A stretch of 63,941 nt of DNA, filler included, from Bonamia ostreae (taxonomy: Eukaryota), in assembly GCA_040357525.1 (NCBI GenBank). It is 6 parts of 6 records of this genome, joined end to end, with 100 filler letters (N's around TTAATTAATTAA, not from the genome) between each part and the next. Parts side by side here need not be neighbours in the genome. Positions count along the whole stretch, not along the records: positions 1 to 11,477 come from JBDODL010000023.1; 5 more parts are not named here. The stretch is one strand, 5' to 3'. The notes under the pieces are model-generated. The model had not been told where the DNA came from and did not search any database. It saw nothing but the letters and a program-made list of their open reading frames with translations. The position numbers and the translations under genes are program-made. Positions 1-48,613 of this stretch are shown in pieces (positions within the stretch are counted from its first letter, which is position 1; each line of letters opens with the position of its first letter).

Positions 1-308
1 CTTTAAACCATTTTATAAAATCTAAATTTTTAATTTCAGAAGAAGGACAATTGCTTCAATGGGGACAATTTTTAGTCTGGCCAACAAAATCAGACTACGG
101 CCTTCCCCCTCTAAAAGACGTCGCCCTCGGCGCAAAACATTATTTGGCACTCGCAAAAGACGGGCGACTGTTTTGCTGGGGCTCAAAAGGCAAAATCACG
201 CCAAAAGAAAACAGAAACGGCCCCGCAGAACTCGAAGAATTTAAAGGAAAAAGAGTGCTCAAAATTTTTTCTGGAGAAGATCGTGTCGCAGTTTTGGCCG
301 AAAATTAA
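1..308 (+). CDS. RCC1-repeat protein, C-terminal part (5' truncated)
   Basis: VALGAKHYLALAKDGRLFCWG and IFSGEDRVAVLAE match RCC1 repeat consensus. Confidence 0.75.
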   Translation, partial: LNHFIKSKFLISEEGQLLQWGQFLVWPTKSDYGLPPLKDVALGAKHYLALAKDGRLFCWGSKGKITPKENRNGPAELEEFKGKRVLKIFSGEDRVAVLAEN

Positions 309-337
309 AATTTTGAAAGAGTCTTATCTATTTAACC

Positions 338-1845
338 TTAAAATTTGGTGAAGGCGTTGGACAGTGGAGCGACTGTTTCTGAAATCGAGGAACGCAGTTT
401 ACGCAAATTTGCTTCGATGTCCATCAAACTTTGCTCTTCCGATGATTCCTCGCCGACGGGGAATATCAAAAATCGATCTATTGGGTCTATCCGAGCTTTC
501 AAATAGCCGTTCTTTATTCCTTTTATTGCCATTATTTCTACGTCGTTGTCATTCATAATCTACGCCATTTTTAAAATTTTTGAAATCAAAATGCAAAATT
601 TTGTCTTTTGTAATTGTCGTTTTAAGTTTTGGAGAATTTTAAAAACCAAAAATTCCTTTTTGACGCTGTCGAAACTTACTCTTCCAGATTCATCGGCGCG
701 TTTGGACATATCGCCGAGTGACATCAATCTAAACTTTTTGAGGCATCCATCTCCATTCGCTTTACAAAAAAGATTGTTTTAAGTTGAACCGTTCAAATCG
801 GTGAAAAAAGTTTTGTTTTCCATTTTGAACGAGAAAAGCGCATTGTAGTCGCCACTTGAAATTATCGACAGGAAATCGGACATTTTTGCTAATTTTTCTT
901 TTACGGGTAAAGATGTCATGTTTTCAGCCGCCGTCTCGACCAATTTGAACAAAGTCAGGTCAGCGCTTTTTCCGCAACGAATCCAATCGCTTACGGCTTA
1001 CAATAACTTTTTAAAACCATTTTTCGCTACGACATATAAATTCGAGTAAAACACGTTAGCCATATTTCCGGTCATTTCGCTTTCGTCATTTTTAAAATAA
1101 TCGCTGGCCAGTTTTAGGTATTTTTTGTGAAATTTGTCTTGATAGTGGTCGAATTGGTTTTTTCGGGTCATCTGATGACTGATGCAGGAAGCGTAATAAA
1201 GAGCGGATTGTGCTTCAAAAAACTGATTTGTGTCAAAATCTGTGTTTAGCAAATCAGATAAAGACTGTTTGACCAAATCTCCTCTTTTCGTTTCACAGCA
1301 AATTCGCAATGGGAAATATATTATTTTTATCTGAGTTTCTTTGTCGTTTTTATTAAGACATAGTACTTTTCCAAAGCTTTGGATTATAAATTAAATATAG
1401 AAAGTTGTGATAGTTTTTGATTTTTAACGAAGACCAAGATATTTTAATGAATGGTTCTATAAAGACATTAACGATTTATTAAGTGGTAATATGTAGTAAT
1501 GGTGGAAACAAAATTAAACTTTAAGACTTTGTTTTCGACATTTGAGTTTGATAGATAAACAACTCTTAAGACTTGCAACAACAGGTTTGATCGCTCATCG
1601 TAACTGTCAATATCTTCGACCAACAAGAGAAGCATATCGATCAAATCGTCCGAATCTAAAAAGTCGCTCGGCAGCAGAGCAATCTTTTCGGCCAAAAACT
1701 TTAGCAACAAGTCCAATTTTTCGTAAATAGTGTTTTTTGATTCAAGTTTCAAATCGTTCGGCACCGCAGCAGACAACTTGTTCAAGACGTAAGTCAAAAC
1801 GTCTTTATGTGTTGTTTTAGGAGCTTTAAGATAAATCAGCGACAT
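338..1845 (-). CDS. PCI-domain protein, eIF3 subunit M-like (multi-exon)
   Basis: Spliced across GT-AG introns gives ...CLKKFRLMSLGDMSKRADESGRVSFDSVKKEFL-IMNDNDVEIMAIKGIKNGYLKARIDP, a PCI winged-helix signature; size and C-terminus fit eIF3m. Confidence 0.6.
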
Positions 1846-1956
1846 TTTAAATTTTAGGAATTCAAAATTATTATATGGAGATTGACTAGAAAAATTTTGT
1901 TGATTATTAGTCGAAAGATTTAACCCTTTCAGATTTTGATTTTTGTTGACGAGGCG

Positions 1957-2019
1957 AACATAGCAACACAGCAAAAACAATTTAATAACATAGCAACACA
2001 GCAAAAACAATTTAATAAC
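1957..2019. repeat. Perfect 30-nt tandem duplication
   Basis: aacatagcaacacagcaaaaacaatttaat x2, overlapping the PNO1 stop codon. Confidence 0.9.
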
Positions 2020-2697
2020 GACACTTGTTTCTGGCCGCCACCATTTGCATCTGCGAATAAACTTTTCCCGGTTGAGAGCCCACAATAAGGCGCACAATAG
2101 TCGCTTTCGCAACTCGGATATTCTTGAAGGAACCAAGAAGATGTATGTGTTGATCAGCTACCACAATCCTCGTTTGTGTAGCATTTTCTCTGATTTATAA
2201 CAAAACCGAAACATTGTAAATTTTGTTTTGCCCTTTTTCCCGACGATTCGTCCAATGGCTCTGGAAAGATGTCCTCGCGGCAGTTTTCGCACTATAATAA
2301 AATGTTTTTAAACCGTCTGTTACCATAAAACTGTCGATAAAAATGTCGTCTACTCTTAGAATTGCAAGTGCGTCTTTTACCTCAAATCCAGATAAAAACG
2401 CTTTCAAGAATTCGTACGCTTTTTGTAAGGCCGTCTCGATTTCTGTGTCCGGCGATTTCTTTTGTTTTAAGTTTTCTATAAAACTCTGATTTCTATTTGT
2501 CCTTTGGCTAAGTTCATCCTTATTTGTAATTTCAGCTGGTTAATTATTGGGTCACATATGTCTTTCCAGTTTTTTTTAAGAATGCTTTTTCTGTTTGACG
2601 GCACTCTAACAAATCGAAAGTCCGATTTTGTGTCATCAGACTTTCTCTTCTTAATCGGTTTAATTTTTGGCCTCTGTTCTTCGAGTTCAACTGACAT
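2012..2697 (-). CDS. PNO1: Pre-rRNA processing KH-domain protein PNO1/Dim2
   Basis: After removing 26, 22 and 23-nt GT-AG introns: AFLSGFEVKDALAILRVDD...HLSRAIGRIVGKKGKTKFTIENATQTRIVVADQHIHLLGSF...PGKVYSQM. Confidence 0.95.
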
Positions 2698-2779
2698 TAA
2701 TAGCAGAAACTACTATATCCGATTTGTCGTAAATTGAAAACACATCAAGCTTAATTTTTTAGATAAAATAACAATTTTG

Positions 2780-3041
2780 ATGGCTGAAAAAACCCCGTTT
2801 ATAACTACATTGTTTTTTCGAATAAAAAATAGTCCCGAAGAAGAGTTGGTAAAAATTATAACAAAAAAATCATTTGACCATTGCATCAAGCATTATAGAT
2901 ACAGTGGACTAACTGAGAAGGTAATTTCAATCAATTCAAAAGGAGAAGTTGTGCGTAGAAAATTTTGCTAACAAAAGCTTAAACTCGTTTAAAAGAATAA
3001 ACGATCGCATCGTTGAACAAGAAAAAATAACGAACAATTAA
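2780..3041 (+). CDS. Small Tim (Tim9/Tim10 family) intermembrane-space chaperone with incomplete twin CX3C
   Basis: Removing the 22-nt intron 2921-2942 gives KKSFDHCIKHYRYSGLTEKEKLCVENFANKSLNSFKRINDRIVEQ, aligning to the Tim9 pattern CFxDC-x-F....LxxxExxCxxxCxxKF....RV..RF.EQ. Confidence 0.7.
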
Positions 3042-3381
3042 ATTAATTTTGAAATCTTATCTTTGATAAATTTTCGAAAATCTTATAATTAATAAGAGAA
3101 TCATATCCTTCAGTTTTACATTAATTATGCTGTGTCAAATTACTTTTCTTGGTAAATGTTGCTAACTCAATTTCGCGACGCGAGGTCTTGTAAATGAAAA
3201 GAATTTATAACTGTTGTGCATACTCAGCCATTCACGCCAAGACAGATGATGTTCTCTTTCCCAAAAATGTTGCAAAAAAGAGGATGGATTCTCAAGAACT
3301 CAATAATAAAAAATTCGTCCAATAGTTTCATCTCTGACAATTTTTAATATATATAATAATAAAAAATTTGCATTCTACATA

Positions 3382-3454
3382 TCCGATGTAGTGTAGTGGT
3401 TTATCACTCTCGTCTGTCACGCGGGGAACCCGGGTTCGATTCCCGGCATTGGAG
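3382..3454 (+). tRNA. tRNA-Asp(GTC)
   Basis: Acceptor stem tccgatg/cattgga, anticodon loop ctGTCac, T-arm ggttcgattcc, followed by a T-run Pol III terminator. Confidence 0.95.
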
Positions 3455-3527
3455 TTTTTATTTTATTCGAGAAAACTAAAACTCCATTTTTAAAATTATA
3501 TTAAAAAAAACTAATACGTAAAGCCAA

Positions 3528-4739
3528 ATGACCAAAAAAGATGTACATGAATTATTACAACAAATTCCACATTTGAATACTGACATTAAAATTTATTTTA
3601 GTTCGTTTTATCAAGCTTGTGATTCTCTCGTTAAGTTCTTAAGACAACTTTTCCCTTCCATCGAAGACAGTTATCTACCATCAAAAAAAATTAGCTCTCT
3701 GATTAAACCTCTTTTCATATTGGTACCAACCAAGTCTCCTTTTTTTAAGGGGATCAACGATAAAACTTTCAATTGTTTTTACGGGGCTGGCATCTATGGC
3801 TTCAACTGCAAAGACCCCAGAGGTGTAATCAAAGCGTTGACGTTTTTTGCGAACGGCGAAGACACTGTTACGCCTTTCATTCACGTCGTCAAAGTTAAAA
3901 ACGCTGAAGCCGTTTTCAGAAATTGGAAAAAACAAGAAAAAGATGAGTTTGTAGAAGCGTCAAAGCCTGTTTATACCAGCGATTTCGGAGTGGCCGGCAA
4001 AGAACGCGTCTTCAGTTTCGACAGAGAACTAACTTTGCTACACCCCACTATTCCCGAGACAGCCGCTTTGCTCGCAAACATCAAGTCTTGCACCCAAAAA
4101 CTGCCTTTAGATTTGCGAAACCACTCCGATCTTCTCTCCAAACACGAAAAAATAGAAAAAACTATCAACGAAATGGCGACTGCTGAAGCAGAGATGAGTA
4201 ATTTGGAGAACGGCGTCAAAGTCATGTTTGGAAACATCAGCGAAAAACTTTTTTTCGACCCAGAGATGACAGACCAAGACATCCTGGATATCTGTGATAT
4301 CGCTATTGACATGATCGGGTCTCAATGGCGCAAGTTTGGCAAAACGTTAAAATTGGCAAAAGAGGATTTGGAAGAATACGTTAAAAAAAGAGCGTCAAGA
4401 AATGCGAAAAGAACCGAATTGACGCGAATTATTGAACAGATAAAAATAATCTTGCGGAATAAAATCGGTGATGCTTTTGAACGAATGTATGAACACGGGG
4501 CAATAGATGAAAACGTTCAAAGTTATCTGGAAATTCTGGACAAATTGGATCTGTCTAATCGGTTTGGCATTCAAAACAAGACAAAAGTTGAAGCGAAATG
4601 CGAAGTTGTAGCTACTTTTGAGTTTTTGCCTTGTCACGAAGCAAGTCATCATGTATACAGTCGATATGTGGGAGTACATAAAGAGCTATCAGAAGATCTG
4701 AAGCTCGGAAACGAGGAGGAAATTGATTCTGATGATTAA
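3528..4739 (+). CDS. Intronless 403-aa hypothetical protein with a death-domain-like segment
   Basis: Long uninterrupted ORF; ICDIAIDMIGSQWRKFGKTLKLAKEDLEEY resembles death-domain helices 1-3. Confidence 0.6.
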   Translation: MTKKDVHELLQQIPHLNTDIKIYFSSFYQACDSLVKFLRQLFPSIEDSYLPSKKISSLIKPLFILVPTKSPFFKGINDKTFNCFYGAGIYGFNCKDPRGVIKALTFFANGEDTVTPFIHVVKVKNAEAVFRNWKKQEKDEFVEASKPVYTSDFGVAGKERVFSFDRELTLLHPTIPETAALLANIKSCTQKLPLDLRNHSDLLSKHEKIEKTINEMATAEAEMSNLENGVKVMFGNISEKLFFDPEMTDQDILDICDIAIDMIGSQWRKFGKTLKLAKEDLEEYVKKRASRNAKRTELTRIIEQIKIILRNKIGDAFERMYEHGAIDENVQSYLEILDKLDLSNRFGIQNKTKVEAKCEVVATFEFLPCHEASHHVYSRYVGVHKELSEDLKLGNEEEIDSDD

Positions 4740-4854
4740 ATATTTTATCATAAAAGTTGAAGAGATAGCAACTACTTCGTTATAAATGAAAACTTTATTA
4801 AAACGCTTTAAAAATAAAACAGTCGCATTAAAATTGCACGGAAAAAGTTTAAGC

Positions 4855-6501
4855 ATGGCAAGCAAATGTCTCGTCCTCTTTTCGATATTTTCCACCATTT
4901 TAATAACTTTAATTTTGATCCCTTCTTCAGCAATTTCTAGCGCAAGTTATTCTGAAGCCGAAAAGGAAAATTGTATTGGTAACGGCGAAGACTATTTTGG
5001 AGAAATAAAAATAACGGAAACGGGCAAATATTGTAAAACTTGGCCGCGATTTTGGTCAACTGTTTATCCGTTGGCTGATCTGAAAAATGACTTTTGTAGA
5101 AACCCGAATAAAGATTTGACTGGACCATGGTGCTTCACTGAATTGAATGAAGAGGGTAAAGAATACTGTGAAATAAATTGTGAAGATGGATTTGTTAAAA
5201 TCAAAGACGGAACAAGGTGCAAAGATAGAGATGAAGTACCTCTTCAGACAAATGGATCGGTTTCGGATTGTCAAGAACTTTGTTGGAAAATGGATGATTG
5301 CGATGTGTTTGAATATCATTCGGACACTGAGGATTGCTCGAGATGCCTAACTTCGTCTGATTTGGGTGTTTTTGGGAATGGTTGGAAATTGATGAAGAGA
5401 TATATGAAACCAAGTTTATATATTTTATTCTTATCTTAAAAAATAATTTACTAACTTTTGTTCTCCTAACAGGTAATAAAAATAATAATTTTAAAGGAAA
5501 GTGTGCTTTAACTTCAGACGATTTAAATAACGAAGAAATAAACATAAAAAACTGCAACACAACAGTAAACTGGCTATTCGAATCAGAATGTCTTCTTGAA
5601 TGTAACGAAGGATATATCGGAAATGTCAACGTCAAGTGTGGAGTCGAATCACAATATTTTAGTCTTAGCGTAAATTGTAACAGTTTGAAATTTCTTGTTT
5701 CAACATTTCTGTATTGTTACAAAATTGCCTTATAACTTTTCGTTTAAATACAAAGAACTTTGTTACATTAACACGGAATTAGCAGAGCAAAGATACATAG
5801 ATGTTTCTGATTGTAAAGCAACAAAAGAAAACATGAAAACAGAATGTCTTATACAATGTTTACCAAATACCTACGGAACGGTTACCACCGAATGCATGGA
5901 AGCAAACACACAGTTTGAAATTAAAGGTACATGTATAGAACATAAATGCAATTTAGACATTGGTGATCTTACTAATAGATCTATTGATTATACCGATTGT
6001 CCAGCTACAACAAATAACTTGTTATATAGAAGTGATTGCAACTTGAAATGCATACAAAACTATTTTGGCGATTTAAAAGTCGACTGTTATGGTGAAAATT
6101 TTGAAATCACAGGAAATTGTTCACAAAAAAGATGCTATTTGAAAACATATGCTGTTTCCGAAGACTATGTAGATATCAGAAACTGCCCCTTTAATAGTTT
6201 ATTGTTACAAGATGAATGTTTATTGAAATGTACACAGTATTCAAGCGGAGAGATATCGGTTGAATGCTTGTCAAACGGTGATAACTTTGAAATAAAAAAC
6301 ATGTGCATTCCATTTAGATGCAATTTGACCGATGAAATAGCACAAAATTTAAAAATTAACAATTTTTTGTGTAAAACATTAAAATTTGTTGAAGAATGTG
6401 ATTTGAAATGTCTAGATGGATATTCTGGGCAAGTTTTTCCTAAAATTTGTCCCGAAGATGGAGGGGTGTTTGATATTATAGGGAGCTGTTACATTAATTA
6501 A
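4855..6501 (+). CDS. Secreted kringle + PAN/apple-like + Cys-rich (sushi-like) repeat protein
   Basis: Signal peptide MASKCLVLFSIFSTILITLIL; kringle CIGNGEDYFG..TETGKYCKTW..NDFCRNPNKDLTGPWCF; DCQELCWKMDDCDVFEY; about five ~60-aa repeats ECxLxC..GYxG.V...C....FEI.G.C; two introns. Confidence 0.85.
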
Positions 6502-6613
6502 ATTTTCGGTTATTTTTCCAATTCGTAACAATTTTTATTAATTTTTGGTAACGGTTTTAAAAAAATTATATCTTTCGATTAATTTACGGCTAGTAATAAT
6601 TAAACCGTTCGGA

Positions 6614-7603
6614 ATGAAGGCAATTTTTTTGATTTTAAATATTTTTGTCGCAAATTCAGCTCCACCAAAATATTATAAAATTTATTCTGACATAAATGAT
6701 ACCATATTTGCTCGGAGCAACAAAGGTATTACCAGATTTTTTTCTAGGGGAGATGTTTCTTTGTCTGCTGGAAAAAGATATGCAGGTTATATTTTTTTGC
6801 GTTTAGCTAAATAATATAAGCAAACATAAATAGTGTTCAATAAAATTTCTGTAATTTTAGACTAAAATATCTAAGGATTTGAAGCATTCGCTTATTACAT
6901 TGGTATATCAGGACATGAAAATGAACCAGAAAGTGTAAATATAAATTTGGTTACATCTTATCCAAATATATCGTTTTTCAGATACGATATTAATAAACTG
7001 GAAAAAAGGGTAAATTTAGAAAATTCTAATCGACTTAAAATTAACAAAATTTTTTATGGGCATTTTCTTTTTTATCCAAGTCACAAGGTTATGGGATATT
7101 ATAAATACAAGCAAATTAAGAGCGATTTATTGAATAAAAAAGGAATTGAAGTTTCAATTAAAACAAATTAACATTTCCTTTTTAATTATTATTAAAAAAA
7201 GGAATATTTTTTAATTATTATTAAAAAAAGGAATATTTAATTAATATTTCCTGTCATTTACAAAAAAAAGGAATATTGGCCAAATGAAAATGTCGGTGAT
7301 AACTATTCTGGAATTTTCATTGGTGACAACATAGATGGGGACACAGTAACAGGAATAAAACTGTTGATGGACGGATTAGTCGATTTTGTATTCATTCACG
7401 CTGTTGTTGTTGATCAACCACTTAATTTTCCTCATCCACAAATCTTTTATTTTAGAGATTATAAAGAAGCAGCTGATCTTGCTTTTGATCACAATTTGAT
7501 AAATTTGAACACCCATTCAAAAATTTATGAGGAGTATGACAAGGAATATGCAGATTACAACAATATCGAGAAGATTATTAATATGGATGAATCTGAATAT
7601 TAA
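6614..7603 (+). CDS. Secreted hypothetical protein (multi-exon)
   Basis: Signal-like MKAIFLILNIFVANS; consecutive ORF segments separated by GT-AG introns. Confidence 0.5.
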
Positions 7604-8037
7604 ATGAGTTGATAAATTTTTCTAGCATTTTGTATTTTTTGGATAATGCAATACTGTTTTGGTTCAAATCATATCAATCTTACAAGTGTAATATTACAAA
7701 TGTCTTGGATCAGGTGACATATTGGTAGAGTTTCCAGACGTCGATGCTGCCAAAAAAGTATAGGAAGTAATCTAAAAATTTCGACGAGCAACTCCTTTGG
7801 AAAAATGTAGAGGCCTTATGAACGATTTAAAAAAAGAATTGACGAGAAACTACGAAAATCAAATCGAAACTTTCAACTTTGTAAACGAAGAATCCCCAAG
7901 GACAGTCGTTTTTATTGAAGCTCTTAAGTACAGAAGACAAATTCAGGTCCTTTTTGTTTAAAATTGAAAATTTTTTCATATTTAAAATTTTTTGCCATAA
8001 AAGTCAAAAACATCAAATTATTTATTTTTCGCTCTAT

Positions 8038-8985
8038 TTAATAGTTCAATTCTTTTCGACTATTTTCTTCTGCTGTTCTTCTTTTTCTATCAATATTAAG
8101 AATATATCTTGTAAAAATTTGGCCCAATACTTTACCAGACGTTTGATATTCTGATTTAATATTTTTAAGTCTTTCTCCCAATCCGTCTCTATGCTCCTCT
8201 TTAACATTTAAATTTTCAATTATCTTTTCTAATTTCTTGGTTTTCATAAATAAAAAATAAGCCCTTTTCACCTCTTTTTAAAGATAATAAAGTTATATTT
8301 CAGGTCATTTAGAGATACAATATTTGAAATAAAAAGATTAAACGAATGTTGGTACAATTTTGATACAATATTTTATGCAATGTTCGAAAAGATAGAATAT
8401 TTGATACAATTTTGTATGAATTTAAAATGTTAAATTTAATTTTTTTGAATAAAAAGATTATTAAAAACTATCATTTATCTCATCTAATCCAACTAAATTT
8501 ATTCAATTTTAAATAAATAATTTAAGCAAATATTATTTAAATTTGTATTTAAGATAATTAGAAACCTGTGATTTCTTTATCTAATGTAAATAAAAATATT
8601 ATATTTCAAAATATTGTTTTAATAAAAAATAGATTATTTGAAACCGTGTGTTGTTTTATCATGTAAGACTTTAATATTTATGTTTTAATTTCATTTAGAT
8701 TATTTTACTCAAAATAAAATTTGTATTAAGAAACCATTCTTTAGTTGATCGTTCAAAAATTCTTAAAACATTTAGATTTGTTTTCGTTGAATTGCATTTT
8801 TTAAATAAAAATATTTTAAATAATATGGATAACATAATATTAAAAAATAATTATAGCCAAACAGAACCTTTATCCATTGTTAGACAACTTTTACTTCTGT
8901 ATAATTTTATACAAAATAGGACGATGGTGTAAATATAAGTTATAACATATACTGTAATCGTTATTTCTAGTGTTGAAGTCTCCAT
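8038..8985 (-). CDS. Micro-exon gene A (~147 aa, N-terminal hydrophobic segment)
   Basis: Exons 8985-8868, 8761-8735 (27 nt), 8668-8645 (24), 8580-8566 (15), 8492-8469 (24), 8273-8038; all phase-1 GT-AG introns; open frame METSTLEITITVYVITYIYTIVLFCIKLYRSKSCLTMDK-EFLNDQLKN-VLHDKTTH-DKEIT-VGLDEIND-KVKRAYFLFMKTKKLE...ELNY*. Confidence 0.8.
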
Positions 8986-9339
8986 TTTATATTTTATTTA
9001 ACCTTTTAAAATAAAAGCAATACACATCGTTTGATTTTAGTTATTTATTTCAAACTTTAATGAAAACATACAATTTTTATTCACAACATTTTAATTTTTA
9101 AAGGATCTTCTGCAAAGAATTCTTCTCGAATCATCGAAGATAAAGCGGAGAATTTTGATTAAATTTAATATTAATTAAAATATTTGGAATTATATTTTTT
9201 AACTAAAATAATGCCCATGAATTGTCTATAAAAAAACATATGGACACCGAGGTTTTCAGTGTTAATTTAATTTTTTTACACCATTCTTCCCTTGGGCTCT
9301 TATGACGCATTCTTCCCTTCACATCTTTTTATTGTGATT

Positions 9340-9745
9340 TCATGAAATAGAGCGCAGATTCGTTTCAAAATTTGTAGAATTATGTTAATTCTATCCAATT
9401 CGTCTATGGAAGCTGTTTTAAAGTATCTTGTTCAGGATTTTTTTTGTGTCTTTTGCATTCAAAAATGCAGTGTTCTGCGTTACCCTTTGTATTAGATACA
9501 GGGCATAGGAAAGATTTTAGTTTTTTGTGACGATATTTGGTATTGTCAGATGGAAGAGTATCCAAAATGAAATTAGAGATCTTCATTTCGGTTGAGCTAT
9601 TCCATCCAATTTGATACTTAGCAGTTCGACAGAGTAGATATTGAATAAAAGATGCGAGAGCGGCTTCCTTGAGGTATTCCGTTTGTAATAGAAAAGTTTT
9701 GACTCAGTTTTCCGTTGAAATTTATTTTCGCAGTTCTATAAAATC
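9340..9745 (-). mobile_element. Degenerate non-LTR retrotransposon (LINE-like) remnant
   Basis: RT motif AKINFNGKLSQNFSITNGIPQGS-(frameshift)-LSHLLFNIY, followed after an internal deletion by a C-terminal zinc-finger relic CPVS..GNAEHCIFEC. Confidence 0.8.
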
Positions 9746-10165
9746 GTAAAGATTTCTCAAAGATTTCATTTAATAAAACGATTTCAAAAATTTTGTTTTA
9801 TTGTTTAATAATTTTTCAAAGATTTTCCAATTATTTTATAATCAAAATAGGTTTGAATAAAGCGCAAAATTGTTCTTCCTGTAAAAACAGGAAATATTGA
9901 TTGATTTTTCATAAATAGAGTTTCTTCAATGATATTGATTGATTTTTTTTAGGAACGTCCACAATTGCGAAATAATAAAAATCGAACCCGTTCGTGCATA
10001 GGTCCAATCTTGGTGCTGCCTTTTCCAACCTGATGTCAAGACTAGAGAAGTATGTTTATCCTAACTCCAAATCTACGGAACTTAATGTCTGCGTTAAATG
10101 ATGGATTGTCAAGTCGAGGTTGTGAGCTCTTAAATTGCAGATATAAATTAAAAAATAAGGTCAAT

Positions 10166-11185
10166 TTAATAGAGTAATCCTTTTATCAATTCTCTACTTC
10201 TATTTTTGACAATAATATATCTTGTTAATTTTTTAACAAAATTAACACAGCTACTTGTATATTTTGGTAGTTTTTCAGTAATTTTTTTTTCATATTTATC
10301 AAAGGTATATGCTTTGTTATTTTTTATTTGAAATATTTTTTATTGCTATTGTATGCAAAATTTATATTAAATAGTTTTTCTAAGATTTATTTAAATTTAA
10401 ATGAAATAGTTACCATTACTTTGCTTCACATGTTCTTCTAAATTTTTTACTTCCAAAAATAAATGGAAAGCTTTGTGCATTGCTTTTTAATATCAAAAAG
10501 TTACATTTTAAGTCATTTTGTGTAAAATATTTATATTTGTATATCATCTTAAATTAAAAAATATAATTTTATTAAAAAAGATTATTAAAAACCATGTCTT
10601 ATTTCATATTCTGTAACTTGAAAAATTTAAGTTTATATTTCAAATTAAATTGCATTTTTTAATAAGAAAATATTTCAATGTGATTTTATAAAAAAAAAAG
10701 TTAATAGAAACCCTCTCTTCTTTCAAATTTTGAAACTTTAAATAATTAACCTTGTAATTCATTTTCAATTGATTTTTAATAATAATAAAAATTATTTTTT
10801 TAATTTAAATATCAAAAAATGTATTATTAGAAACTGCATTCTTTTCTAAGGATCTTATCTAAAACATTTATGTTTGTTTTTCATTTTAAATTGAATATTT
10901 ACTCAAAATGGATTTAATTTTTCAATTTCACATAAAAAATATATTTTAATAAACCATTTTGTATTAGATTTATCAGAAATTCTTAAATATTTAAATTTAC
11001 ATTTTATAGAATTGTAAATATTTATTAATAAATAGTAAATTATGAAACTTTCTCCAAAAGAATTTACTAATAAAAAATCTATATTTTAATATTTAAAAAC
11101 TTTGTCTGTGAGATATCATGTATAAAATGAGGAAACAACAAATAACGAACAAAACACTTAGCAAAATGAATATAAGATGGTCCAT
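10166..11185 (-). CDS. Micro-exon gene B (~142 aa), paralog of gene A
   Basis: Exons 11185-11101, 11078-11049 (30 nt), 10981-10955 (27), 10858-10835 (24), 10735-10712 (24), 10616-10593 (24), 10482-10414 (69), 10311-10166; all phase-1; MDHLIFILLSVLFVICCFLILYMISHRQ-NFLLVNSFGE-KFLINLIQN-DKILRKEC-ISKFERRE-VTEYEIRH-AMHKAFHLFLEVKNLEEHVKQSN-AYTF...LTRYIIVKNRSRELIKGLLY*. Confidence 0.75.
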
Positions 11186-11477
11186 TTCAATTTTTAATTT
11201 AATAGTTCCAAACATAAATAATACAAACCAGTTTTTCTGGTTAAATCGTATAAGAGAGTTGCCAAGCCCTGTTTTAATTTATTATAAACAAATTTTGAAT
11301 AACAAGTTTCGATAAGTTTTTACGTTGGTTGGTGCTAAATTTAATCTAGCTTGGTGATATAGTCTTTGTTGTGATCTTCGTAGCTTTGTATTTCATTGAG
11401 TATTACGAAAAGCATGCTGAATGGATAAAATATTTCCGTTTTTGATTAAATATAACGGAAACTCAGTGATTGAGAAA

Positions 11478-11577
11478 NNNNNNNNNNNNNNNNNNNNNNN
11501 NNNNNNNNNNNNNNNNNNNNNTTAATTAATTAANNNNNNNNNNNNNNNNNNNNNNNNNNNNNNNNNNNNNNNNNNNN
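11478..11577. other. Artificial contig linker (N-TTAATTAATTAA-N); also at ~22690-22789, 33774-33873, 44778-44877, 55467-55566
   Basis: Identical 100-nt spacers with a six-frame stop core. Confidence 0.98.
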
Positions 11578-14500
11578 TATTCGTCATTTTATAAAGTTTT
11601 GCAAACAATTGTTGTTCGCCATTTAAATAATAGAACTTGTTGTTACAGAACATAATCATTAAACCTGTCCAACTTCAGCGCAATCATCAGCGCACTTGTC
11701 TTCTCCGGCATTTTCTCTTTCAGATCGCCTTCTATTTACCGATAAAGTTCGCACAATCTCTTCCTCGTTCAAACCGACCGGCACCGTCAATTCTTCTTCG
11801 CCGCGAAGGTACATCTCTGCGGCACTGAAACCAGCGCTGAAACTGGAGTCGTCGTGAGATGATACAATTTCTTCTTCGAGACTTTCTTCCGAATCGCTGC
11901 GATTTTTTCTTTCCGCTGCAAAACTTGGCCTAGTCCGCTTCAACAAAGCGTCGCCCATTTTCTCCAACTCGCGCCATCCTCGATCCAACAACCATGTCAC
12001 CGCGTGCTGCATGTCGTCGTTTTCTTTTTCCAGCGCCATTTCGCAGAGTTCGATCGGAAAATGGCCCATTATTTCGACGAGACTTTCCGCCATTTCTCTG
12101 CGCTTTTGTTCTGCGGCCGATCTTCCTTTCTTCTTCGATCGCAAAGTTTGCTTCAAAAAAATTAGTAATGTTTTTGTTTTTTTGAAAATGAGAAAATATT
12201 TGTTTTTACGAAATTAGAAATATTTTTGTTTTTGCGAAAATGTGAAAATATTTTTGTTATACAAGACAAACCAGATATTCAGGACTTAAAGTGCTTTCGA
12301 AATCGAAAGCAAATTTTTCGTGTCCAAAATTGACTTCGATATGAGTGTTGCTGCTTTCTATCCAAAGAAAAGGATAATAACGAGAATTTGCTCCTTCGAA
12401 CGTCCGATTTAATTTTTCGCCGTTTTTTGTAAAATAAATTGATTTTTTTATAATGTCGTAGCCACAGCCGATAATGTCTTTCGCTCTTAAATCTTCAATT
12501 GTCAAATTTTTCGAAAATTTACCGTTATCGCCGACGTGAATTGATTTGTTGTCATGGACGATTTGGTTTGTTGAAGCACAATAAGAATACGAAAATTCGT
12601 TTCCGGGTTTCCCCTTTAATTCGGCCCCTTCGACATAGAGACCGATCGCAACTCCAAAATCGCGATTTTCGCTGATTTGGATTATTTTGGCTTCAAAATA
12701 AAAATGTTTCAGGGATTTGGGGATTAGTTGGTTTGCCCTGCAATAGCAAATGGCGTTTTCGGACGTTTTTTGGGACGCGGATAGTCGGCGCAATTTTGAG
12801 AATTTTTCAAAATTGCATTTTTTCGAATATTCAGCGTCGATGTGGGTTGGCAATTTTGCCTTGTTTTTGGAGTTTTCAAATTTGTAATAAAATCGTTTTA
12901 AATTGAGAATTTAATTAATTTTTTATTAAAATGGCAATTTTTTTTCTAAAACGACAATTTTATAATTTTTAATTAAACGACAATTTATAATTTTCAAACT
13001 TGCAAATTCTTAAACGGAGAAAATGGAATCAAATCGTCAATTTTTTCAACTTTGCCAAAACTATTCTCATTTTCAAAGATCAACTCCAAAATTCGCGTTT
13101 GAATCGCTTCCAAATATTCAAGCGAAATGTATTCGTTCAACTTTGTCGAATGCATCGCCGTTTTTACAAAAACGGGGAGAAAACCTTTCGAAGCGTCTAA
13201 AAACGCTTCCGTTCCCATTTTCGAGAGCAATTTACAAATGGATTTGATTGCACTACTGCGCAAGCGACAGAACAAAAATCGATTTTCCGAAATTTGCGAT
13301 TTTGCTAAATTGCTAAAAATTGATAAAAACAATTTTCGTCAACTACATCGCCATTTTTATTTTTGTCTTCAAAATCGGCCATCTTGGGACGCATCGAACT
13401 ACACATTGAACACATTTCAGAATGTTTTTCGTTGATGAAAGTGCAAGTCGCGCAAGACCATTTTTGAATTTTTCTTTTTTGGGATTTTCCGCGCGTGATC
13501 GAAATTTTCATTTGCTCCAAATCTTCGCCTGAATCGAGAAGGTTTTTTAAAATGGCCAAAATCGTTTTTAAAAATTTTTCGTTTTCGCTAAAATTTAAAT
13601 CGATTTCGGAAAATGGGCGTAATTTTTTGATTTCAAAATTTTCGATTATTCTGTTTCTGTTCGAGTCGAATATTATTTTGCAACTAAATTATTTAGTCAA
13701 AATTTAGTCGGTAAAATTTTGTTAAAATGGCAATTTATTTATAAAATTTTGTTAAAATGGTAATTTATTAGTAAAATTTTGTTAAAATGGCAATTTAAAA
13801 AATTTAGACGTTCCTGCCAATCTGTTGATTTCCAAAAGAGTTCCTTTTTCGTTGTTGCTTTTGCTGTTGATATTTTCAACTCTGCAGCCAATTCTAAAAA
13901 CATTGGTGTGGCCACCCAGAATGGCCAATGACGCCATTGCCATTCTAAATTTAGTCAAATCGACTTTTTCTTTTAATTCTTTTCTTGTTTTTTTATAAAT
14001 TGGTTTTTAAATTAAAAAAAATGATCAAAAAGTTAATTTTTGTTAAATAAAATTTGCAACTTTTGGTAATCGACCAATTTTGGGATTTGTTCAAGTTTTG
14101 TTACCAAAAAGTTTATGATAACAGATTTCCATTTGTTGTTACAGATCATCGATCTTACAAAGACAATATATTCAAATATCAGTTTTTGGGCGACTGCTCC
14201 CGATTTGATATGAAATTGATGATTTTCATCAGCTAAAAAATTGAATTTTTGTAAAATATCGATTTTAGAAAATTTTGTGTTTTGAAAACTTTTGTTTTTT
14301 TCGATTGACAGATTGCCAATTTTTTCCATGAAATGTTCTAAAATGAATTCGATTTTTTCTTTTAGGTTTTTTAAGTTGTTTTTTTGGTTATCTGATTTAA
14401 TACAGTTTAAAATCGAGTCGATATTTTTTGTGTCACGAACCGATTTTCGCAATATTGCCATTGATAAGTTCTTGTTCGTTATTTAAATTTTATCAATTGA

Positions 14501-17500
14501 AAATTATAAAAAACATTAGAATTTTTTAAAATTATTTATAATAAACGTCAAAATTTGTTTAAAATTAATTTAAAACGTCAAAGTTTGTTAAAAATTAATT
14601 TAAAAAATCAAATTTAGTCAGTTAAAATTTAATTAATTAAAAACCTGTAAACGAGGCGTAAACTCTTCATCAACCGTAAAAATTTTCTGTGGAAGAACGT
14701 GTTTGTACAGATTAAAATCGCTTGTCGTAAAACTAACAATGCCCAACAACTCGTACAACTTCTGCTCCACAACAAAAAAATCTAGATTAAATTTCTTTTT
14801 CTCTTCAATATTAATTTTGTCAAATTCTGTAAAATTTGCGCTTTTGTTTTTAATTTTTTGGCTAAATTTTAATATCTTTTCAAAATCCAAAAATTCGATG
14901 CATTCAGCGTTTTCGTTATCAATCATTTCCGAGTTAGATTGTGCCAAATTTTGCATTGCCAATTCGAATGCAATTTTAAGTTGTTTTGAATATTTTAAAA
15001 TTTTTTGGCTAATATTTTTGGCTAAATGTTTTTGTGTTTCGAGAAAATTTTTTGAAAGTTGTTTTGGTTTTTTCTGTTCAAAAATTTTATAATTTGAAAA
15101 TTTTTGTTTTTGGTAAAAATTCTAAAAATTAGTCAAAACCTCAAAATTGATCTGAGAAACTAATTTGAGCGAAGAACATTTGACGCAAAAATGATAAAAA
15201 GCGTTTTTTGACAATTCGGAAAAATTTCCAAAATTAGTCTTTGACCATTTCAAATCGTTCAAAATGGAAAATAATTTGGAATTTTTAAAATCGTTAAAAT
15301 TTAGTTCCATTGATAGAACTGACAATGCTGTTATTCCTATTGCGCTCGGATTTTTGCTATTTTTCTATTTTTTCAATTTTACAGTTTTTTTTTTAAATCA
15401 GAAAATTTTTGAAAATCTTTGTTTTGTCAATTTAGCAAAATTTCGAAGATTTTTATTTTGTTTTTAATAATTTAAAAATTACAAATCGCTAAAAATAAGC
15501 AAATCTTTAAATTACCTCTAAAATTTTCAAAATAAGCTCAAATAAAGCCGAAAAAGCTTTTTTAGCTTTCTCCAAATGTTCGGTTCCAGCTGCTTCGGCG
15601 TCTTTGTTCAGACGAGACAAGCATTTCCCATCAATAAATTTGGAAATGACCGTAACAGCGACTTCTTGGCGATTCGGGCAAAATGCAGATAATTCCAAAA
15701 CTTCTTTCAAAACGGTGAAAACAGCGCACCGCTTTTCAGCTCTTTTTTTGGCCGTTTTTATAAAATTGTTCAAATCTGTCACCGAGACCGCGCTTTTATA
15801 GAAACTGTCCATAATTTCAAGTTTTGTTTCTTTTCCGAAACATTGTGGAATGTTATTTGAATTTAAGACAAATGAACATTTTTTTATTATTGGATTGCAA
15901 AGTTTATTGACAATCTTTTTATTTATTGTTAATAATTTATTGTTTAAGTTTTGAACAGTTTTGATTTTTAATTTATTGTTTTAGAAGTTTTGATTTGTTT
16001 TTTAATAATTATTTATTGATAAATTTGATTTTTGTAGAGCAATTTTTGATATATTATAATAAAATTTTGTAGCGCAATTTTTTTGTTATTGATAAATTTA
16101 TTACTAAAATTTGACATTTGTAGAACAATTTTTTTATTGTTTTTATAATCAAATATTTTTAAAGAATTACCGAATCTTTGTCGATCGAGCTTATTTCGTT
16201 TTCATCAGATTCCTCTTTTAGAATGCGATGCTTTTCGTTTAAAAGAAAATTTTTCATGTCCTTCGACATATTCCAAATTTTTAACAATATTTTCGGAATT
16301 TCTTTGCTCTTTTTCTTTACAATTTAAATTTTAGTCTTATAAAAGTTAGTTTTGTGTTAAATTACTCTTTTTCTTAATTTTTCTGATTAAAATTGTTTTT
16401 TAAGTAAAATTTGCATTTTCGTTATTTTGATTTTAAAACTTTGGAAATATTTTCAGCGCAATTTATTAAATCCAAATGTTTTAAAGCCGCTGCGATATAA
16501 AAACGAACAGTTTCGTCAATTTTGCAATCTTGTACATTGTCAATAATCGAAGTTTTTGACTATATTTTAAATTATAAACATTTCTTATCATAAATTTGTG
16601 AAAATTTAAAGCTTCGGACGTTTCGTTTTTTATCAAGTTTTCGATAAATCGGCCGTTTTCAAACGAATTTTTATTGTTTATTTCAGAAAACAGTCCAAAC
16701 AACATTCTTTATATCAAAATTAAAAAAAAACTTTTTAAAGATTTTTTCATTTCCAGTTACATTGTTGCTATCCATCATGACACTACAGATTCTTCCCAGA
16801 GTAGCTGCAGCTTGTTGTCTCAGATCCCAAAGCCATGTTTTACGATATTTTGAAAGTTTGTCCATTTTAACGGCGGTAACAAAAATTTCAAAACCGGTCG
16901 AAATGTTTTCGCTGTTTTCTAGCGAATTTTTTGAGCGGATATATTTTAGCTTTATCCAATCTGATTTGAGCAAAATGGTATCTCTTGACCAAATAACGTC
17001 ATTTTCTTTCAATTCGAACAATATTTTTCCCTTTTTGTTTTCTATTTGCAACGAGTCCTTGCTTTGAAAGTTTTTTTATTTGTAAAAGACAAAAATTATA
17101 AAAAGGACAAAACGTTAAAAAAATTAAAAGAAAAATTTAAAATAAAAGAAAAAATTATAAAAAAGGACAAAATTAGAGAAAAATAAAAATTATAAAAAGA
17201 AATAATTTTAAAATGACAAAAGATTATAAAAATTTTTATTTAAAAAACGTTTCAAAATAATCAAATTGTTCCTTAAACGATAAAAGAAGATGAGATGCTC
17301 CAGAAAACTCAACAACAGTTTCATATTTTATCTCATTGTTTCTAAAGAAAGAAGGTATTTCAATGATTTTGCGCCCTCCAATTTCGCTTTTTTCTTCTAA
17401 TTTATTCGTTTTTCGTTCATTTTCAACAATTTTTGTTAATAAAAACAAAATTCTTTTCATGTCAGAGACCAATTCTTCTGTTTTTTAATATTTTGTTGTC

Positions 17501-22613: not shown

Positions 22614-22969
22614 ATGAAATCAATTTTACAAAAATAATTATTGCAGCGGCTCTTAAATTCGGTAGATTAAAATGAACATTTGTCGAATCNNNNNNNNNNN
22701 NNNNNNNNNNNNNNNNNNNNNNNNNNNNNNNNNTTAATTAATTAANNNNNNNNNNNNNNNNNNNNNNNNNNNNNNNNNNNNNNNNNNNNTCACCGATTGT
22801 TTGACCCTAAACTATTTTTTGTTTAAAATGGAAATATTTCTCTTTTTGTAAAAAGAAAGAAACAATTGATCCTCATTTTTTACTTGTTATGGATGAAAAT
22901 ATTTGATTTTTATCATTTTTTGGTTTTTAATCATTAAATGTTTTTTTTAAATAAACATTTCAAAATAAA

Positions 22970-23908: not shown

Positions 23909-24008
23909 NNNNNNNNNNNNNNNNNNNNNNNNNNNNNNNNNNNNNNNNNNNNNNNNNNNNNNNNNNNNNNNNNNNNNNNNNNNNNNNNNNNNNNNNNNNN
24001 NNNNNNNN

Positions 24009-33773: not shown

Positions 33774-34055
33774 NNNNNNNNNNNNNNNNNNNNNNNNNNN
33801 NNNNNNNNNNNNNNNNNTTAATTAATTAANNNNNNNNNNNNNNNNNNNNNNNNNNNNNNNNNNNNNNNNNNNNTTTTCTTCTTCTTTTTCTCGTTATTAT
33901 TATTTTTTGTTTTTTTCTCGTTTATCTTTTTTACTTTTTCTCGTTATTCTATTCGAACAAATTTTATTACGAGAAACATAGATAATTTGAAACATAGATT
34001 TAATTTTTATTAAAAAATTTAAAATAAACATTCTAAACCTGATATAATCAATAAA

Positions 34056-36322: not shown

Positions 36323-36784
36323 TAAATCCTTTGTTCTTGCAGTAAATTTTTTGTTCGTTGATTGGCAGTTTCTGGCCGTTTTAGTAACAGTCTTCATTAA
36401 TTTTTTTTGTTTTGGTTCTTTAAAATTTTTGTATTTTGATTTGATTCTTTGTCTCCACTTACAATATTTTCAAAAAATTATGCAGAAACATTGAAGAAAA
36501 CAATTATGAGAATTTTGATTTATTTTAATCAAAATCGATGTTGTTGAAGTAAATCTGATTTACTAAAAATCAATGTTATCAAATGTTATTTTCCGAATTT
36601 TAATCAACTTCCAATAAGTCGTGTCTAGAAATGGTTGAAATGCACAAACGACATATCTTCGAAATGGGGTTGCAAAAATATTTTCAAAATGTGTTTTTAA
36701 TAAACTCGTTTACAGTTGCGACTTATTTTTCCAATATCTTTAAATTGCAAATTTATTTGCGAAAAACGTTATAAACGACAATAA

Positions 36785-44777: not shown

Positions 44778-44877
44778 NNNNNNNNNNNNNNNNNNNNNNN
44801 NNNNNNNNNNNNNNNNNNNNNTTAATTAATTAANNNNNNNNNNNNNNNNNNNNNNNNNNNNNNNNNNNNNNNNNNNN

Positions 44878-48532: not shown

Positions 48533-48613
48533 ATAATTTTGCCGAAACTTTTTGATCTCGGTTGACCAAAATACAATTTTGAAAGTTTTTAAGCCCGTTT
48601 AATGTGCCGCAAT

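What the first reader, a model, noticed from the sequence alone, without database searches (positions are those of the whole stretch)
8038..11185. Hidden family of micro-exon genes (MEG-like) built from symmetric phase-1 exons
Seen: this ORF-poor AT-rich stretch splices on the minus strand into two complete genes. Gene A has internal exons of 27/24/15/24 nt and gene B of 30/27/24/24/24/69 nt. Every internal exon is a multiple of 3 and every intron is phase 1 GT-AG. The genes are paralogous exon by exon (EFLNDQLKN vs KFLINLIQN; VGLDEIND vs VTEYEIRH; AYFLFMKTKKLE vs AFHLFLEVKNLE; TRYI; terminal LxY*), and both start with a hydrophobic signal/anchor. Most flanking introns are 64-195 nt, inverting the local pattern of ~20-nt introns. 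Known: schistosome micro-exon genes use this design to diversify secreted proteins by exon skipping. Inference: a convergent splice-based diversification system for secreted/surface proteins in a protist; I know of no description of one. Caveat: three acceptors in gene B were chosen over upstream AGs to keep the frame.
Basis: partly seen in the sequence, partly recalled or inferred. Interest (0 to 1): 0.93.

Follow-up and report, generated by a model that had tools for sequence, protein, structure and literature searches.

The report
Two micro-exon genes in Bonamia ostreae
Two neighbouring small genes of the oyster parasite Bonamia ostreae really are built from strings of tiny in-frame exons, much like the micro-exon genes of blood flukes, but nothing yet shows that the parasite shuffles these exons to vary its proteins.

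Summary
On the minus strand of 8038-11215 lie two tandem genes. Gene A has internal exons of 27/24/15/24 nt. Gene B has 30/27/24/24/24/69 nt. All 12 introns are GT-AG and phase 1. Spliced contigs of one public run bridge 5 of 5 introns of A and 5 of 7 of B, and one carries a poly(A) tail. My spliced translations equal two GenBank proteins letter for letter: MHBO_000184 and MHBO_005285, both "hypothetical protein [Bonamia ostreae]". The texts I searched do not mention their micro-exon design. The proteins are orphans: an N-terminal 19-21-residue hydrophobic segment, a low-confidence linker encoded by the micro-exons, and a helical hairpin. The C-terminal domains and one micro-exon pair are significantly alike, and the exon-plus-flank units look tandemly duplicated. 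Not supported: secretion, since the segment looks more like a membrane anchor, and diversification by exon skipping, since 0 of 8 joints skip an exon. Micro-exons make up only 20-28% of the coding sequence. Verdict: a real, partial, convergent analogue of fluke micro-exon genes, of moderate interest.

The parts
8868..8985 (-). Gene A (MHBO_000184) exon 1, 118 nt. ATG at 8985. Encodes a short acidic N-terminus, a 19-residue hydrophobic core and a basic flank.
   Evidence: model equals P0107. (contig record 2 covers 8868-8984 and joins to the next exon). (hydropathy).
8735..8761 (-). Gene A micro-exon 2, 27 nt, phase 1-1.
   Evidence: joints 8761>8868 and 8668>8735.. Homologous to B exon 3: 19/27 identical, z 5.2.
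8645..8668 (-). Gene A micro-exon 3, 24 nt, phase 1-1.
   Evidence: joints..
8566..8580 (-). Gene A micro-exon 4, 15 nt, phase 1-1.
   Evidence: table 5c: 13 letters between the joint 8494>8645 match this exon..
8469..8492 (-). Gene A micro-exon 5, 24 nt, phase 1-1.
   Evidence: joint 8273>8469..
8038..8273 (-). Gene A last exon, 236 nt including the stop at 8038-8040. Encodes the helical C-terminal domain.
   Evidence: contig covers 8063-8273. (P0107 ends at the same residue)..
11101..11215 (-). Gene B (MHBO_005285) exon 1. Encodes a 21-residue hydrophobic core.
   Evidence: model equals P0111. Its junction to exon 2 was not among the contig pieces shown.
11049..11078 (-). Gene B micro-exon 2, 30 nt, phase 1-1, preceded by a 22-nt intron.
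   Evidence: needed to reproduce P0111. No contig piece for it was shown.
10955..10981 (-). Gene B micro-exon 3, 27 nt, phase 1-1.
   Evidence: the loose end of 13 letters behind 10859 matches the 3' end of this exon..
10835..10858 (-). Gene B micro-exon 4, 24 nt, phase 1-1.
   Evidence: joint 10735>10835..
10712..10735 (-). Gene B micro-exon 5, 24 nt, phase 1-1.
   Evidence: joints 10616>10712 and 10735>10835. Similar to exon 6 (z 6.0).
10593..10616 (-). Gene B micro-exon 6, 24 nt, phase 1-1.
   Evidence: joints 10482>10593 and 10616>10712..
10414..10482 (-). Gene B exon 7, 69 nt, phase 1-1. It is the first part of the C-terminal domain and corresponds to the start of A's last exon.
   Evidence: record 6..
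10151..10311 (-). Gene B last exon. Stop at 10166-10168, poly(A) addition near 10151.
   Evidence: the loose end of 11 letters before 10414 matches the exon start at 10311, and a T13 loose end lies at 10151..
9583..9797 (-). Decayed, frameshifted fragment between the two genes that resembles a reverse-transcriptase box. It is not part of either gene.
   Evidence: translations in two frames. The resemblance is my recollection of the motif only: Pfam found nothing.

Best explanation
The locus holds two tandem, same-strand paralogous protein-coding genes of the haplosporidian oyster parasite Bonamia ostreae.

Shown:
- Each gene is transcribed, polyadenylated and spliced through canonical GT-AG, mostly GTTT-starting, introns into one observed mRNA form.
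- That form strings 4 (A) or 5 (B) phase-1 micro-exons of 15-30 nt between a first exon and a C-terminal coding part.
- The products (147 and 152 residues) have no detectable relatives.
- The micro-exon units share exon and flank similarity within and between the genes.

Inferred:
- The first exon gives an uncleaved N-terminal membrane anchor.
- The micro-exons encode a flexible juxtamembrane linker.
- The last exon(s) give a basic helical hairpin.
- The micro-exon array arose by tandem duplication of exon-plus-intron units. Because every unit is phase 1-1 and a multiple of 3, units can be gained, lost or diverge without breaking the frame.
- The design therefore acts mainly as an evolutionary length-and-sequence module for the linker, spliced constitutively, and not as a demonstrated isoform generator.
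- The introns around micro-exons are several-fold longer than the genome's usual tiny introns and carry an extended conserved donor (consensus close to GTTTCTAATAAT). This probably gives the spliceosome room and signal to define such short exons.
For: Splicing. One search lists 8 joints with GT..AG ends on the minus strand. One 418-nt contig runs through all six exons of A. One 166-nt contig runs from exon 3 to exon 8 of B. A poly(A) loose end lies at 10151.

Coding. In one search, 0 of 20,000 shuffles keep the frame open. In one search the models are identical to P0107 and P0111.

Identity. Searches give the NCBI names MHBO_000184 and MHBO_005285 [Bonamia ostreae] on a contig of 11,477 nt. 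That is the length of the window's first scaffold.

Orphan status.
- phmmer of 1.84 billion representatives gave 4 hits at E<=0.001. One is the protein itself and 3 are 1436-1620-residue proteins matched in 4-9 stretches.
- the profile search returned only the two genes, out of 224 candidates.
- no Pfam, PDB, Foldseek or Atlas match of weight.

Architecture. One search gives hydrophobic cores with Kyte-Doolittle 19-residue means of 2.21 and 3.18. (AlphaFold2) gives a helix at 2-35, pLDDT 39-44 over residues 31-70 (the micro-exon part), and helices 76-102 and 105-140 at pLDDT 66-76.

Duplication. C-terminal z 4.96. A2/B3 19/27 identical., over 36 unit pairs: exon similarity B5/B6 z 6.0, A2/B3 5.1, A3/B6 4.2; acceptor flanks B4/B6 5.8, A2/B4 5.1; donor flanks A5/B6 4.2; donor consensus.

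Rarity of the design. PMC11069148 Table 1 (passage seen) gives a mean of 2 introns per mRNA for B. ostreae, against 5 and 7 here.
Against: - The topology and the 'uncleaved anchor' reading rest on hydropathy and charge counts only. B is charge-neutral across its core, so a type II or cleaved form is not excluded.
- The AlphaFold model is weak overall (mean pLDDT 57.1, alignment of 2 sequences).
- Constitutive splicing is inferred from contigs, which drop rare variants.
- Both high-depth B contigs end inside exons 3 and 8, not at exon borders. Variants (alleles, near-identical paralogs or other forms) therefore exist that I could not resolve.
- The z-scores for short units come from 36 pairwise tests on AT-rich sequence.
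- The extended donor similarity could reflect a shared splicing signal rather than common descent.
- Run X1 may be the same data that guided the GenBank annotation, so the two supports may not be independent.
Confidence: 0.6

Rival explanations
1. One reading: a true micro-exon-gene system. The parasite skips symmetric exons in different combinations, or draws on many near-identical paralogs, to vary an abundant secreted or surface protein at the host interface.
For: - All internal exons are phase 1-1 and multiples of 3, so any skip stays in frame.
- There is an N-terminal hydrophobic segment.
- The micro-exon-encoded part is predicted with low confidence, as flexible regions are.
- Contig word depths are 5,964 and 11,739 against 2-175 for the other contigs laid on the stretch. 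This is a hint only, because the tool warns that depth cannot rank genes.
- The B contigs break inside exons 3 and 8, and the last exon of B is cut into pieces of unequal depth, so unresolved variants exist.
- The assembly is very fragmented (N50 1,417 bp; PMC11069148 Table 1, passage seen), so further copies could be missing.
Against: - 0 of 8 reported joints skip an exon, and one contig runs through all exons of A.
- Each protein is a one-member cluster, and no other relative was found.
- Micro-exons make up only 20-28% of the coding sequence.
- The hydrophobic cores are long for a cleaved signal peptide (inference).
Confidence: 0.17
2. The two proteins are fast-evolved copies of an ordinary small housekeeping membrane protein, for example an organelle-membrane subunit with an N-terminal anchor and a cytosolic helical domain. 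Their homology is erased by the long branch of this parasite, and the micro-exons are an incidental by-product of local exon duplication.
For: - In A the charges favour an N-out/C-in anchor with a cytosolic C-terminal domain (plus inference).
- The C-terminal part holds 1-2 cysteines and at most one N-x-S/T site.
- A conserved proteasome subunit of the same assembly is at most 55% identical to anything else in the database, which shows how divergent this genome is.
Against: - No family is detected by Pfam, by a PDB profile, by Foldseek or by the Atlas.
- Tandem duplication and strong divergence between the two copies (26% identity) is unusual for a housekeeping subunit.
Confidence: 0.18
3. The transcripts are non-coding, for example host genes for intronic small RNAs, and the open frames are fortuitous.
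For: The locus has many short exons with poorly conserved sequence and introns of 64-195 nt, a layout also seen in snoRNA host genes. This comparison is recalled, not tested.
Against: - 0 of 20,000 shuffles keep either spliced frame open, and the other frames carry 15-18 stops.
- The C-terminal domains are similar at protein level.
- No Rfam match at E<=1 lies in 7900-11300 on either strand.
Confidence: 0.02

Closest known systems
Schistosome micro-exon genes (MEGs), as described in PMC10526429 (passages read)
   Same: Small orphan proteins of a parasite. Internal exons are very short and multiples of three. An N-terminal hydrophobic segment is encoded by a longer first exon. The introns around the micro-exons are long relative to the exons. 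The copies lie in tandem and the exon units look duplicated. The micro-exon-encoded region has low predicted order. A possible retroelement remnant lies beside the genes (recalled motif only).
   Different: No sequence homology. There are 4-5 micro-exons rather than 10-20. They make up 20-28% of the coding sequence rather than most of it. Introns are 22-195 nt, not 100-5000 nt. The N-terminal segment looks like an anchor rather than a cleaved signal peptide. No alternative isoform was seen. The host is a rhizarian protist, not a flatworm, so any likeness is convergent.
Isolated micro-exons in ordinary genes of animals, plants and fungi (for example PMC12230235, passages read: about 9% of Coprinopsis gene models hold an internal exon of 15 nt or less)
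   Same: Exons of 15-30 nt that must be included to keep the frame. They need correct annotation to avoid broken models.
   Different: Those are usually single micro-exons inside large conserved genes and of any phase. Here they form an array of same-phase units in two tiny lineage-specific genes.
Tandem exon duplication giving repeat-encoding exon arrays
   Same: Units of exon plus flanking intron resemble one another within and between the two genes, as expected from unequal crossing-over of exon-intron cassettes.
   Different: The units here have diverged so far that the peptides they encode are no longer significantly alike.

Membership tests
Schistosome MEG proteins (homology) | Detectable sequence relationship to a MEG family | tested here: not met
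   phmmer of the last exon of A against 1.84 billion representatives found only the protein itself plus 3 long repetitive proteins. The profile of A+B found only the two genes. No Pfam family reached its cut-off.
MEG-type gene architecture | Internal exons very short and multiples of three (symmetric) | tested here: met
   Exons of 27/24/15/24 nt and 30/27/24/24/24(/69) nt, all phase 1-1. Confirmed by contigs and by identity to P0107 and P0111.
MEG-type gene architecture | 10-20 short exons that make up most of the coding sequence (PMC10526429 passage for the number; 'most of the coding sequence' is recalled) | tested here: not met
   There are 4 and 5 exons of 36 nt or less. They make up 90 of 444 nt (20%) and 129 of 459 nt (28%) of the coding sequence.
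MEG-type gene architecture | Long introns between the micro-exons (100 to about 5000 bp in S. mansoni, PMC10526429 passage) | tested here: inconclusive
   Introns are 64-195 nt (one of 22 nt). That is several-fold longer than the 18-56-nt junction candidates of neighbouring genes, but short in absolute terms.
MEG-type gene architecture | N-terminal cleaved signal peptide, secreted product | tested here: inconclusive
   Hydrophobic cores of 19 and 21 residues, with positive charges C-terminal of the core in A. This reads as an anchor. No signal-peptide or topology predictor was available.
MEG-type gene architecture | Protein variation through alternative splicing of the symmetric exons | tested here: inconclusive
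   0 of 8 joints skip an exon, and single contigs span the arrays. Both proteins are one-member clusters. Contigs drop rare variants and raw reads were not available.
MEG-type gene architecture | Multi-copy family, often in clusters | tested here: inconclusive
   A tandem pair exists. No third member was found in the window or in the protein collections. The assembly is highly fragmented (PMC11069148 Table 1), and the whole genome was not available.

The most novel reading that the evidence does not exclude
Bonamia ostreae has independently evolved a cassette system in which phase-1 micro-exons of a strongly transcribed, membrane-anchored or secreted protein are combined in different ways. The mechanism would be exon skipping, or recombination among near-identical paralogs that the fragmented assembly collapses. 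The result would be varied molecules at the interface with the oyster haemocyte. This would be the first splice-cassette variation system of the fluke type in a protist. The unexplained breaks of the high-depth contigs inside exons 3 and 8 of gene B, and the unequal depths of the pieces of its last exon, would be traces of that variation.
Probability: 0.12. Interest if true: 0.8.

Novelty: new variant of a known kind. Interest (0 to 1): 0.45.

Why it matters
Bonamia ostreae is a regulated pathogen that helped collapse European flat-oyster stocks, and almost nothing is known of its surface or host-interaction proteins. These two lineage-specific genes have unusually deep transcript contigs, an N-terminal membrane or secretory segment and a design otherwise known from blood-fluke host-interface genes. 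That makes them concrete candidates for markers, antibodies and localisation studies.

For genome biology the locus is a clean case. In a genome that normally uses introns of about 20-30 nt and about two introns per gene, a gene can still hold an array of 15-30-nt exons. The introns around such exons are then several-fold longer and carry an extended donor signal. This bears on how very short exons are recognised when introns are minimal.

It also warns annotators of fragmented protist assemblies that ORF-poor AT-rich stretches can hide complete genes.

Tried and rejected
- Whole genome: none is held.
- RNA runs: no RNA holder is listed. The one holder, X1, is marked 'RNA?' as a guess. I used only what its contigs bridge.
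- Parts without cover: exons 1 and 2 of gene B had no high-depth piece among those shown (18 records were not shown). The last 25 nt of A's coding sequence and the intergenic stretch were also uncovered. No conclusion is drawn from any of these.
- Metazoan origin. I first suspected a dicyemid or myxozoan because of the ultra-short introns, the kringle and PAN domains and papers PMC13644364 and PMC6543705 (passages read). I rejected this once named the organism. Those animals' donor signal is also described as 'GTa', not GTTT.
- Sequence-only detection: counts of AG-(3n)-GTTT units and clusters of the extended donor motif do not single out the locus. The six other donor-motif clusters on the minus strand did not look like micro-exon arrays in the three that I read.
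- An ORF-joining heuristic for local introns was too noisy. It was replaced by the per-junction listing.
- Function by likeness gave nothing of weight. The best Pfam E-value was 0.017, below cut-offs. The best PDB profile E-value was 0.27. Foldseek gave 0 matches at E<=0.001, only generic helical hairpins. The Atlas feature scores were 0.85 or lower, within the range of shuffled proteins, and its structure rows were generic helices.
- Small RNAs in the introns: no Rfam match at E<=1.
- Reverse-transcriptase fragment between the genes: Pfam found nothing in 6 ORF pieces. The reading stays a recollection.
- Upstream and downstream flanks of A and B are not alike (z -0.5 and 1.5).
- Literature. 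Search listings combined micro-exon terms with dicyemid/myxozoan/orthonectid terms (15 of 292 listed) and with protist/Rhizaria terms (12 of 4,853 listed). They showed no paper holding both kinds of term among those listed. This is not an exhaustive search.
Full report
**What the window is**

The 63,941-nt window is not one molecule. Five spacers of the form N44-TTAATTAATTAA-N44 cut it into six pieces. Their lengths are 11,477, 11,112, 10,984, 10,904 and 10,589 nt, followed by 8,375 nt cut off by the window's end. These are scaffolds of one assembly in descending order of length. The finding lies wholly in the first scaffold (1-11477).

The protein collection names the two proteins of the locus as NCBI "hypothetical protein MHBO_000184, partial [Bonamia ostreae]" and "hypothetical protein MHBO_005285 [Bonamia ostreae]". 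Both sit on a contig of 11,477 nt. The host is therefore the haplosporidian (Rhizaria, Ascetosporea) parasite of flat-oyster haemocytes.

The genome paper PMC11069148 (passages and Table 1 read) describes this assembly:
- 12.24 Mb in 9,705 scaffolds
- N50 of 1,417 bp
- 33.3% G+C
- 5,253 gene models
- a mean of 2 introns per mRNA

**Checking the observation**

Reading the minus strand and rebuilding the exons by coordinate gives these models.

| Gene | Exons (window coordinates, minus strand) |
|---|---|
| A | 8985-8868, 8761-8735, 8668-8645, 8580-8566, 8492-8469, 8273-8038 |
| B | 11215(or 11185)-11101, 11078-11049, 10981-10955, 10858-10835, 10735-10712, 10616-10593, 10482-10414, 10311-10151 |

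- All 12 introns are GT-AG and phase 1, and 10 of 12 donors start GTTT.
- Intron lengths are 106/66/64/73/195 nt in A and 22/67/96/99/95/110/102 nt in B.
- Two large neighbouring genes offer junction candidates mostly of 18-56 nt with GTTT donors (heuristic).

The pattern alone is not beyond chance. Open phase-1 AG-(3n)-GTTT units occur about 3 per kb on either strand of the whole window (187 on +, 202 on -). The locus has 13 in 3.6 kb.

**What makes the genes real**

One public run (X1, kept as assembled contigs, marked "RNA?" as a guess) holds 23% of the sampled words of the stretch. Laid on 7800-11400, its contigs skip exactly the predicted introns.
- Eight joints are reported, and seven have CT..AC ends on the + strand. 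The eighth, around the 15-nt exon, is reported as AA..AC because the aligner could not place that exon. Its 13 middle letters appear as "letters between".
- One of the eight (7948>8011) lies just downstream of gene A, not within either gene.
- A single 418-nt contig runs from 8984 through all four micro-exons of A to 8063.
- A 166-nt contig carries the last 13-14 nt of B exon 3, then exons 4, 5, 6 and 7, then the first 11 nt of exon 8.
- A T13 loose end at 10151 is a poly(A) tail on the minus strand.

So 5 of 5 introns of A and 5 of 7 of B are bridged. The two first introns of B were not among the pieces shown (18 records were not shown).

Two further results agree.
- The spliced frames are open for 147 and 152 codons. 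None of 20,000 shuffles of either mRNA stays open, and the other two frames carry 15-18 stops.
- My spliced translations equal P0107 (after its first four residues, which are translated 5' leader) and P0111, letter for letter.

X1 may be the same data that guided the annotation, so these supports may not be independent.

**The proteins**

Both begin with a hydrophobic core of 19 residues (A) or 21 residues (B). The Kyte-Doolittle 19-residue means are 2.21 and 3.18.
- In A the core follows an acidic 7-residue N-terminus and is followed by a cluster of Lys/Arg. By the positive-inside rule (established knowledge, applied by me) this puts the N-terminus outside and the rest in the cytosol.
- B is charge-neutral across the core.
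- The cores are long for a cleaved signal peptide, so I read them as anchors. No predictor was available.

AlphaFold2 on the two-sequence alignment is weak overall, with mean pLDDT 57.1.
- It gives a helix over residues 2-35.
- It gives very low confidence (block means 39-44) over residues 31-70, which is the micro-exon-encoded part.
- It gives an antiparallel helical hairpin (76-102 and 105-140) at pLDDT 66-76.

The part after the core is basic (27 K+R against 20 D+E in A, 24 against 14 in B). It has 1-2 cysteines.

**Relatives**

An exhaustive phmmer search with A's last exon against 1.84 billion representatives gave 4 hits at E<=0.001. One was the protein itself. Three were very long proteins matched in 4-9 stretches, which I take as coiled-coil composition. 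A search with B's last exon found only B. A profile of A+B found only A and B among 224 candidates. None of the following gave a match of weight:
- Pfam
- the PDB by profile
- Foldseek against the PDB
- the ESM Atlas
- Rfam for the DNA

No third copy lies in the other five scaffolds of the window.

**Paralogy and origin**

A and B align at 26% identity overall.
- The C-terminal domains are significantly alike: z 4.96, with 0 of 2000 shuffles reaching the score. A's last exon corresponds to B's exons 7 and 8, so one intron differs.
- The micro-exon peptides and the first exons are not significantly alike.

At DNA level:
- A2 and B3 are 19/27 identical (z 5.2, 0 of 500 shuffles), while A5/B6 is not significant.
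- Among 36 unit pairs, exon similarity is highest for B5/B6 (z 6.0), A2/B3 (5.1) and A3/B6 (4.2). Acceptor-side flanks peak at B4/B6 (5.8) and A2/B4 (5.1), and donor-side flanks at A5/B6 (4.2).
- The nine micro-exon donors share a 12-nt consensus close to GTTTCTAATAAT.

I read this as tandem duplication of exon-plus-intron cassettes, followed by gene duplication and strong divergence. A shared splicing signal could explain part of the flank likeness.

**How it most likely works**

*Shown.* Two transcribed, polyadenylated, canonically spliced genes, each with one observed mRNA form, encode orphan proteins with a hydrophobic N-terminus.

*Inferred.* These are small membrane-anchored proteins. 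Their flexible juxtamembrane linker is encoded by phase-1 cassettes. The cassette design lets the linker grow, shrink and diverge over evolutionary time without frame damage. The longer introns and extended donors help the spliceosome define 15-30-nt exons in a genome tuned to tiny introns.

*Not shown.* Secretion, surface location, or any alternative isoform.
- None of the 8 joints skips an exon, and the A contig is unbranched through all junctions. Contigs drop rare variants, so this is only absence of evidence.
- The high-depth B contigs end inside exons 3 and 8 rather than at exon borders, and B's last exon is cut into pieces of unequal depth. Some sequence variants therefore exist that I cannot assign to alleles, hidden paralogs or other forms.
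- Word depths of 5,964 (A) and 11,739 (B), against 2-175 for the other contigs on the stretch, hint at strong expression. The tool warns that contig depth cannot rank genes.

**Comparison with the known**

Schistosome micro-exon genes (PMC10526429, passages read) have these features:
- 10-20 exons of 6-81 bp, mostly multiples of three
- introns of 100-5000 bp
- an N-terminal signal peptide
- alternative splicing
- retrotransposon sequences at their borders

The Bonamia pair shares the symmetric micro-exons, the hydrophobic first exon, the relatively long introns, the tandem arrangement and orphan status. It does not share sequence homology, exon number, the share of coding sequence made of micro-exons (20% and 28%), a clear signal peptide, or demonstrated isoforms. 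It works like a reduced MEG in gene design. It is not a member of that family, and any likeness is convergent. Single micro-exons as such are common in eukaryotes (PMC12230235, passages read).

**Novelty**

The gene models are public, so the genes are not hidden.
- The main text of the genome paper holds 0 occurrences of "micro-exon".
- The transcriptome paper PMC9329632 holds 0 occurrences of "intron" or "exon".
- Supplements of both were not visible and could list these genes.
- My two combined literature searches showed no paper joining micro-exon genes with protists among those listed (partial listings).

I rate it a new variant of a known kind. Interest is moderate: it is real and neat, sits in an important but poorly known pathogen, and consists of two genes with no evidence yet for the diversification role that would make it striking.

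Noticed in passing
window 11478-11577, 22690-22789, 33774-33873, 44778-44877, 55467-55566: The window is a concatenation of separate scaffolds in descending length, joined by N44-TTAATTAATTAA-N44 spacers (a six-frame stop linker). Features must not be read across these points. Ordinary gaps of 100 N (23909-24008) and 10 N (43782-43791) also occur.
   Followed up: yes
window 36000-42000 and 45000-50000: G+C-rich islands (43-55%) lie inside otherwise 25-35% G+C scaffolds. They carry eukaryotic housekeeping genes: Rieske protein, mitochondrial ribosomal protein S5-like, proteasome beta subunit and a 688-residue orphan ORF. Such strong compositional heterogeneity within single scaffolds is unexplained.
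   Followed up: partly
window 9583-9797 (-): Between the two genes lie two overlapping frames that together read like a frameshifted reverse-transcriptase box (NGIPQGS in one frame, PLSHLLFNIY in the next). Pfam finds nothing. A contig of depth 3.8 covers 9552-9793. This may be a decayed retroelement remnant at the border of the duplicated genes.
   Followed up: partly
window 7949-8011 (-): A low-depth contig (7.5) joins 8011/8012 to 7948/7949 across a 62-nt GT-AG intron with a GTTTTT donor. The intron begins about 27 nt after gene A's stop codon. Two further loose ends lie at 7867 and 7870. This is either a rare 3'-UTR intron of gene A or the start of a downstream minus-strand transcript.
   Followed up: no
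window 10955-11215 (-): The high-depth contig of gene B stops 13-14 nt into exon 3. Another stops 11 nt into exon 8. The pieces of the last exon have word depths of 2,051, 4,680 and about 11,700. The only contig shown on exon 1 has depth 174.5 and runs on upstream past 11400. Variants or hidden paralogs may exist. The tool warns that contig depth cannot rank parts of a gene.
   Followed up: no
window 4786-6501 (+): Just upstream of the locus on the other strand lies a protein with a hydrophobic N-terminus, a Kringle domain (E 2.2e-13) and a PAN domain (E 2.2e-4). It is followed by a cysteine-rich repeat ORF with no Pfam match. These are possible adhesin-like surface proteins of the parasite.
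   Followed up: partly
window 13305-13330, 15122-15139, 16707-16731, 57174-57202, 59449-59471: Candidate introns of neighbouring genes are 18-29 nt, start GTTT and end in TTTAG or AAAG, often with a CTAAT/TTAAT-like element in the middle. The donors of the micro-exon introns look like the 5' half of such a tiny intron.
   Followed up: partly
window 3382-3454 (+): A tRNA-Asp (GTC) gene is the only Rfam or ARAGORN hit in the window.
   Followed up: yes
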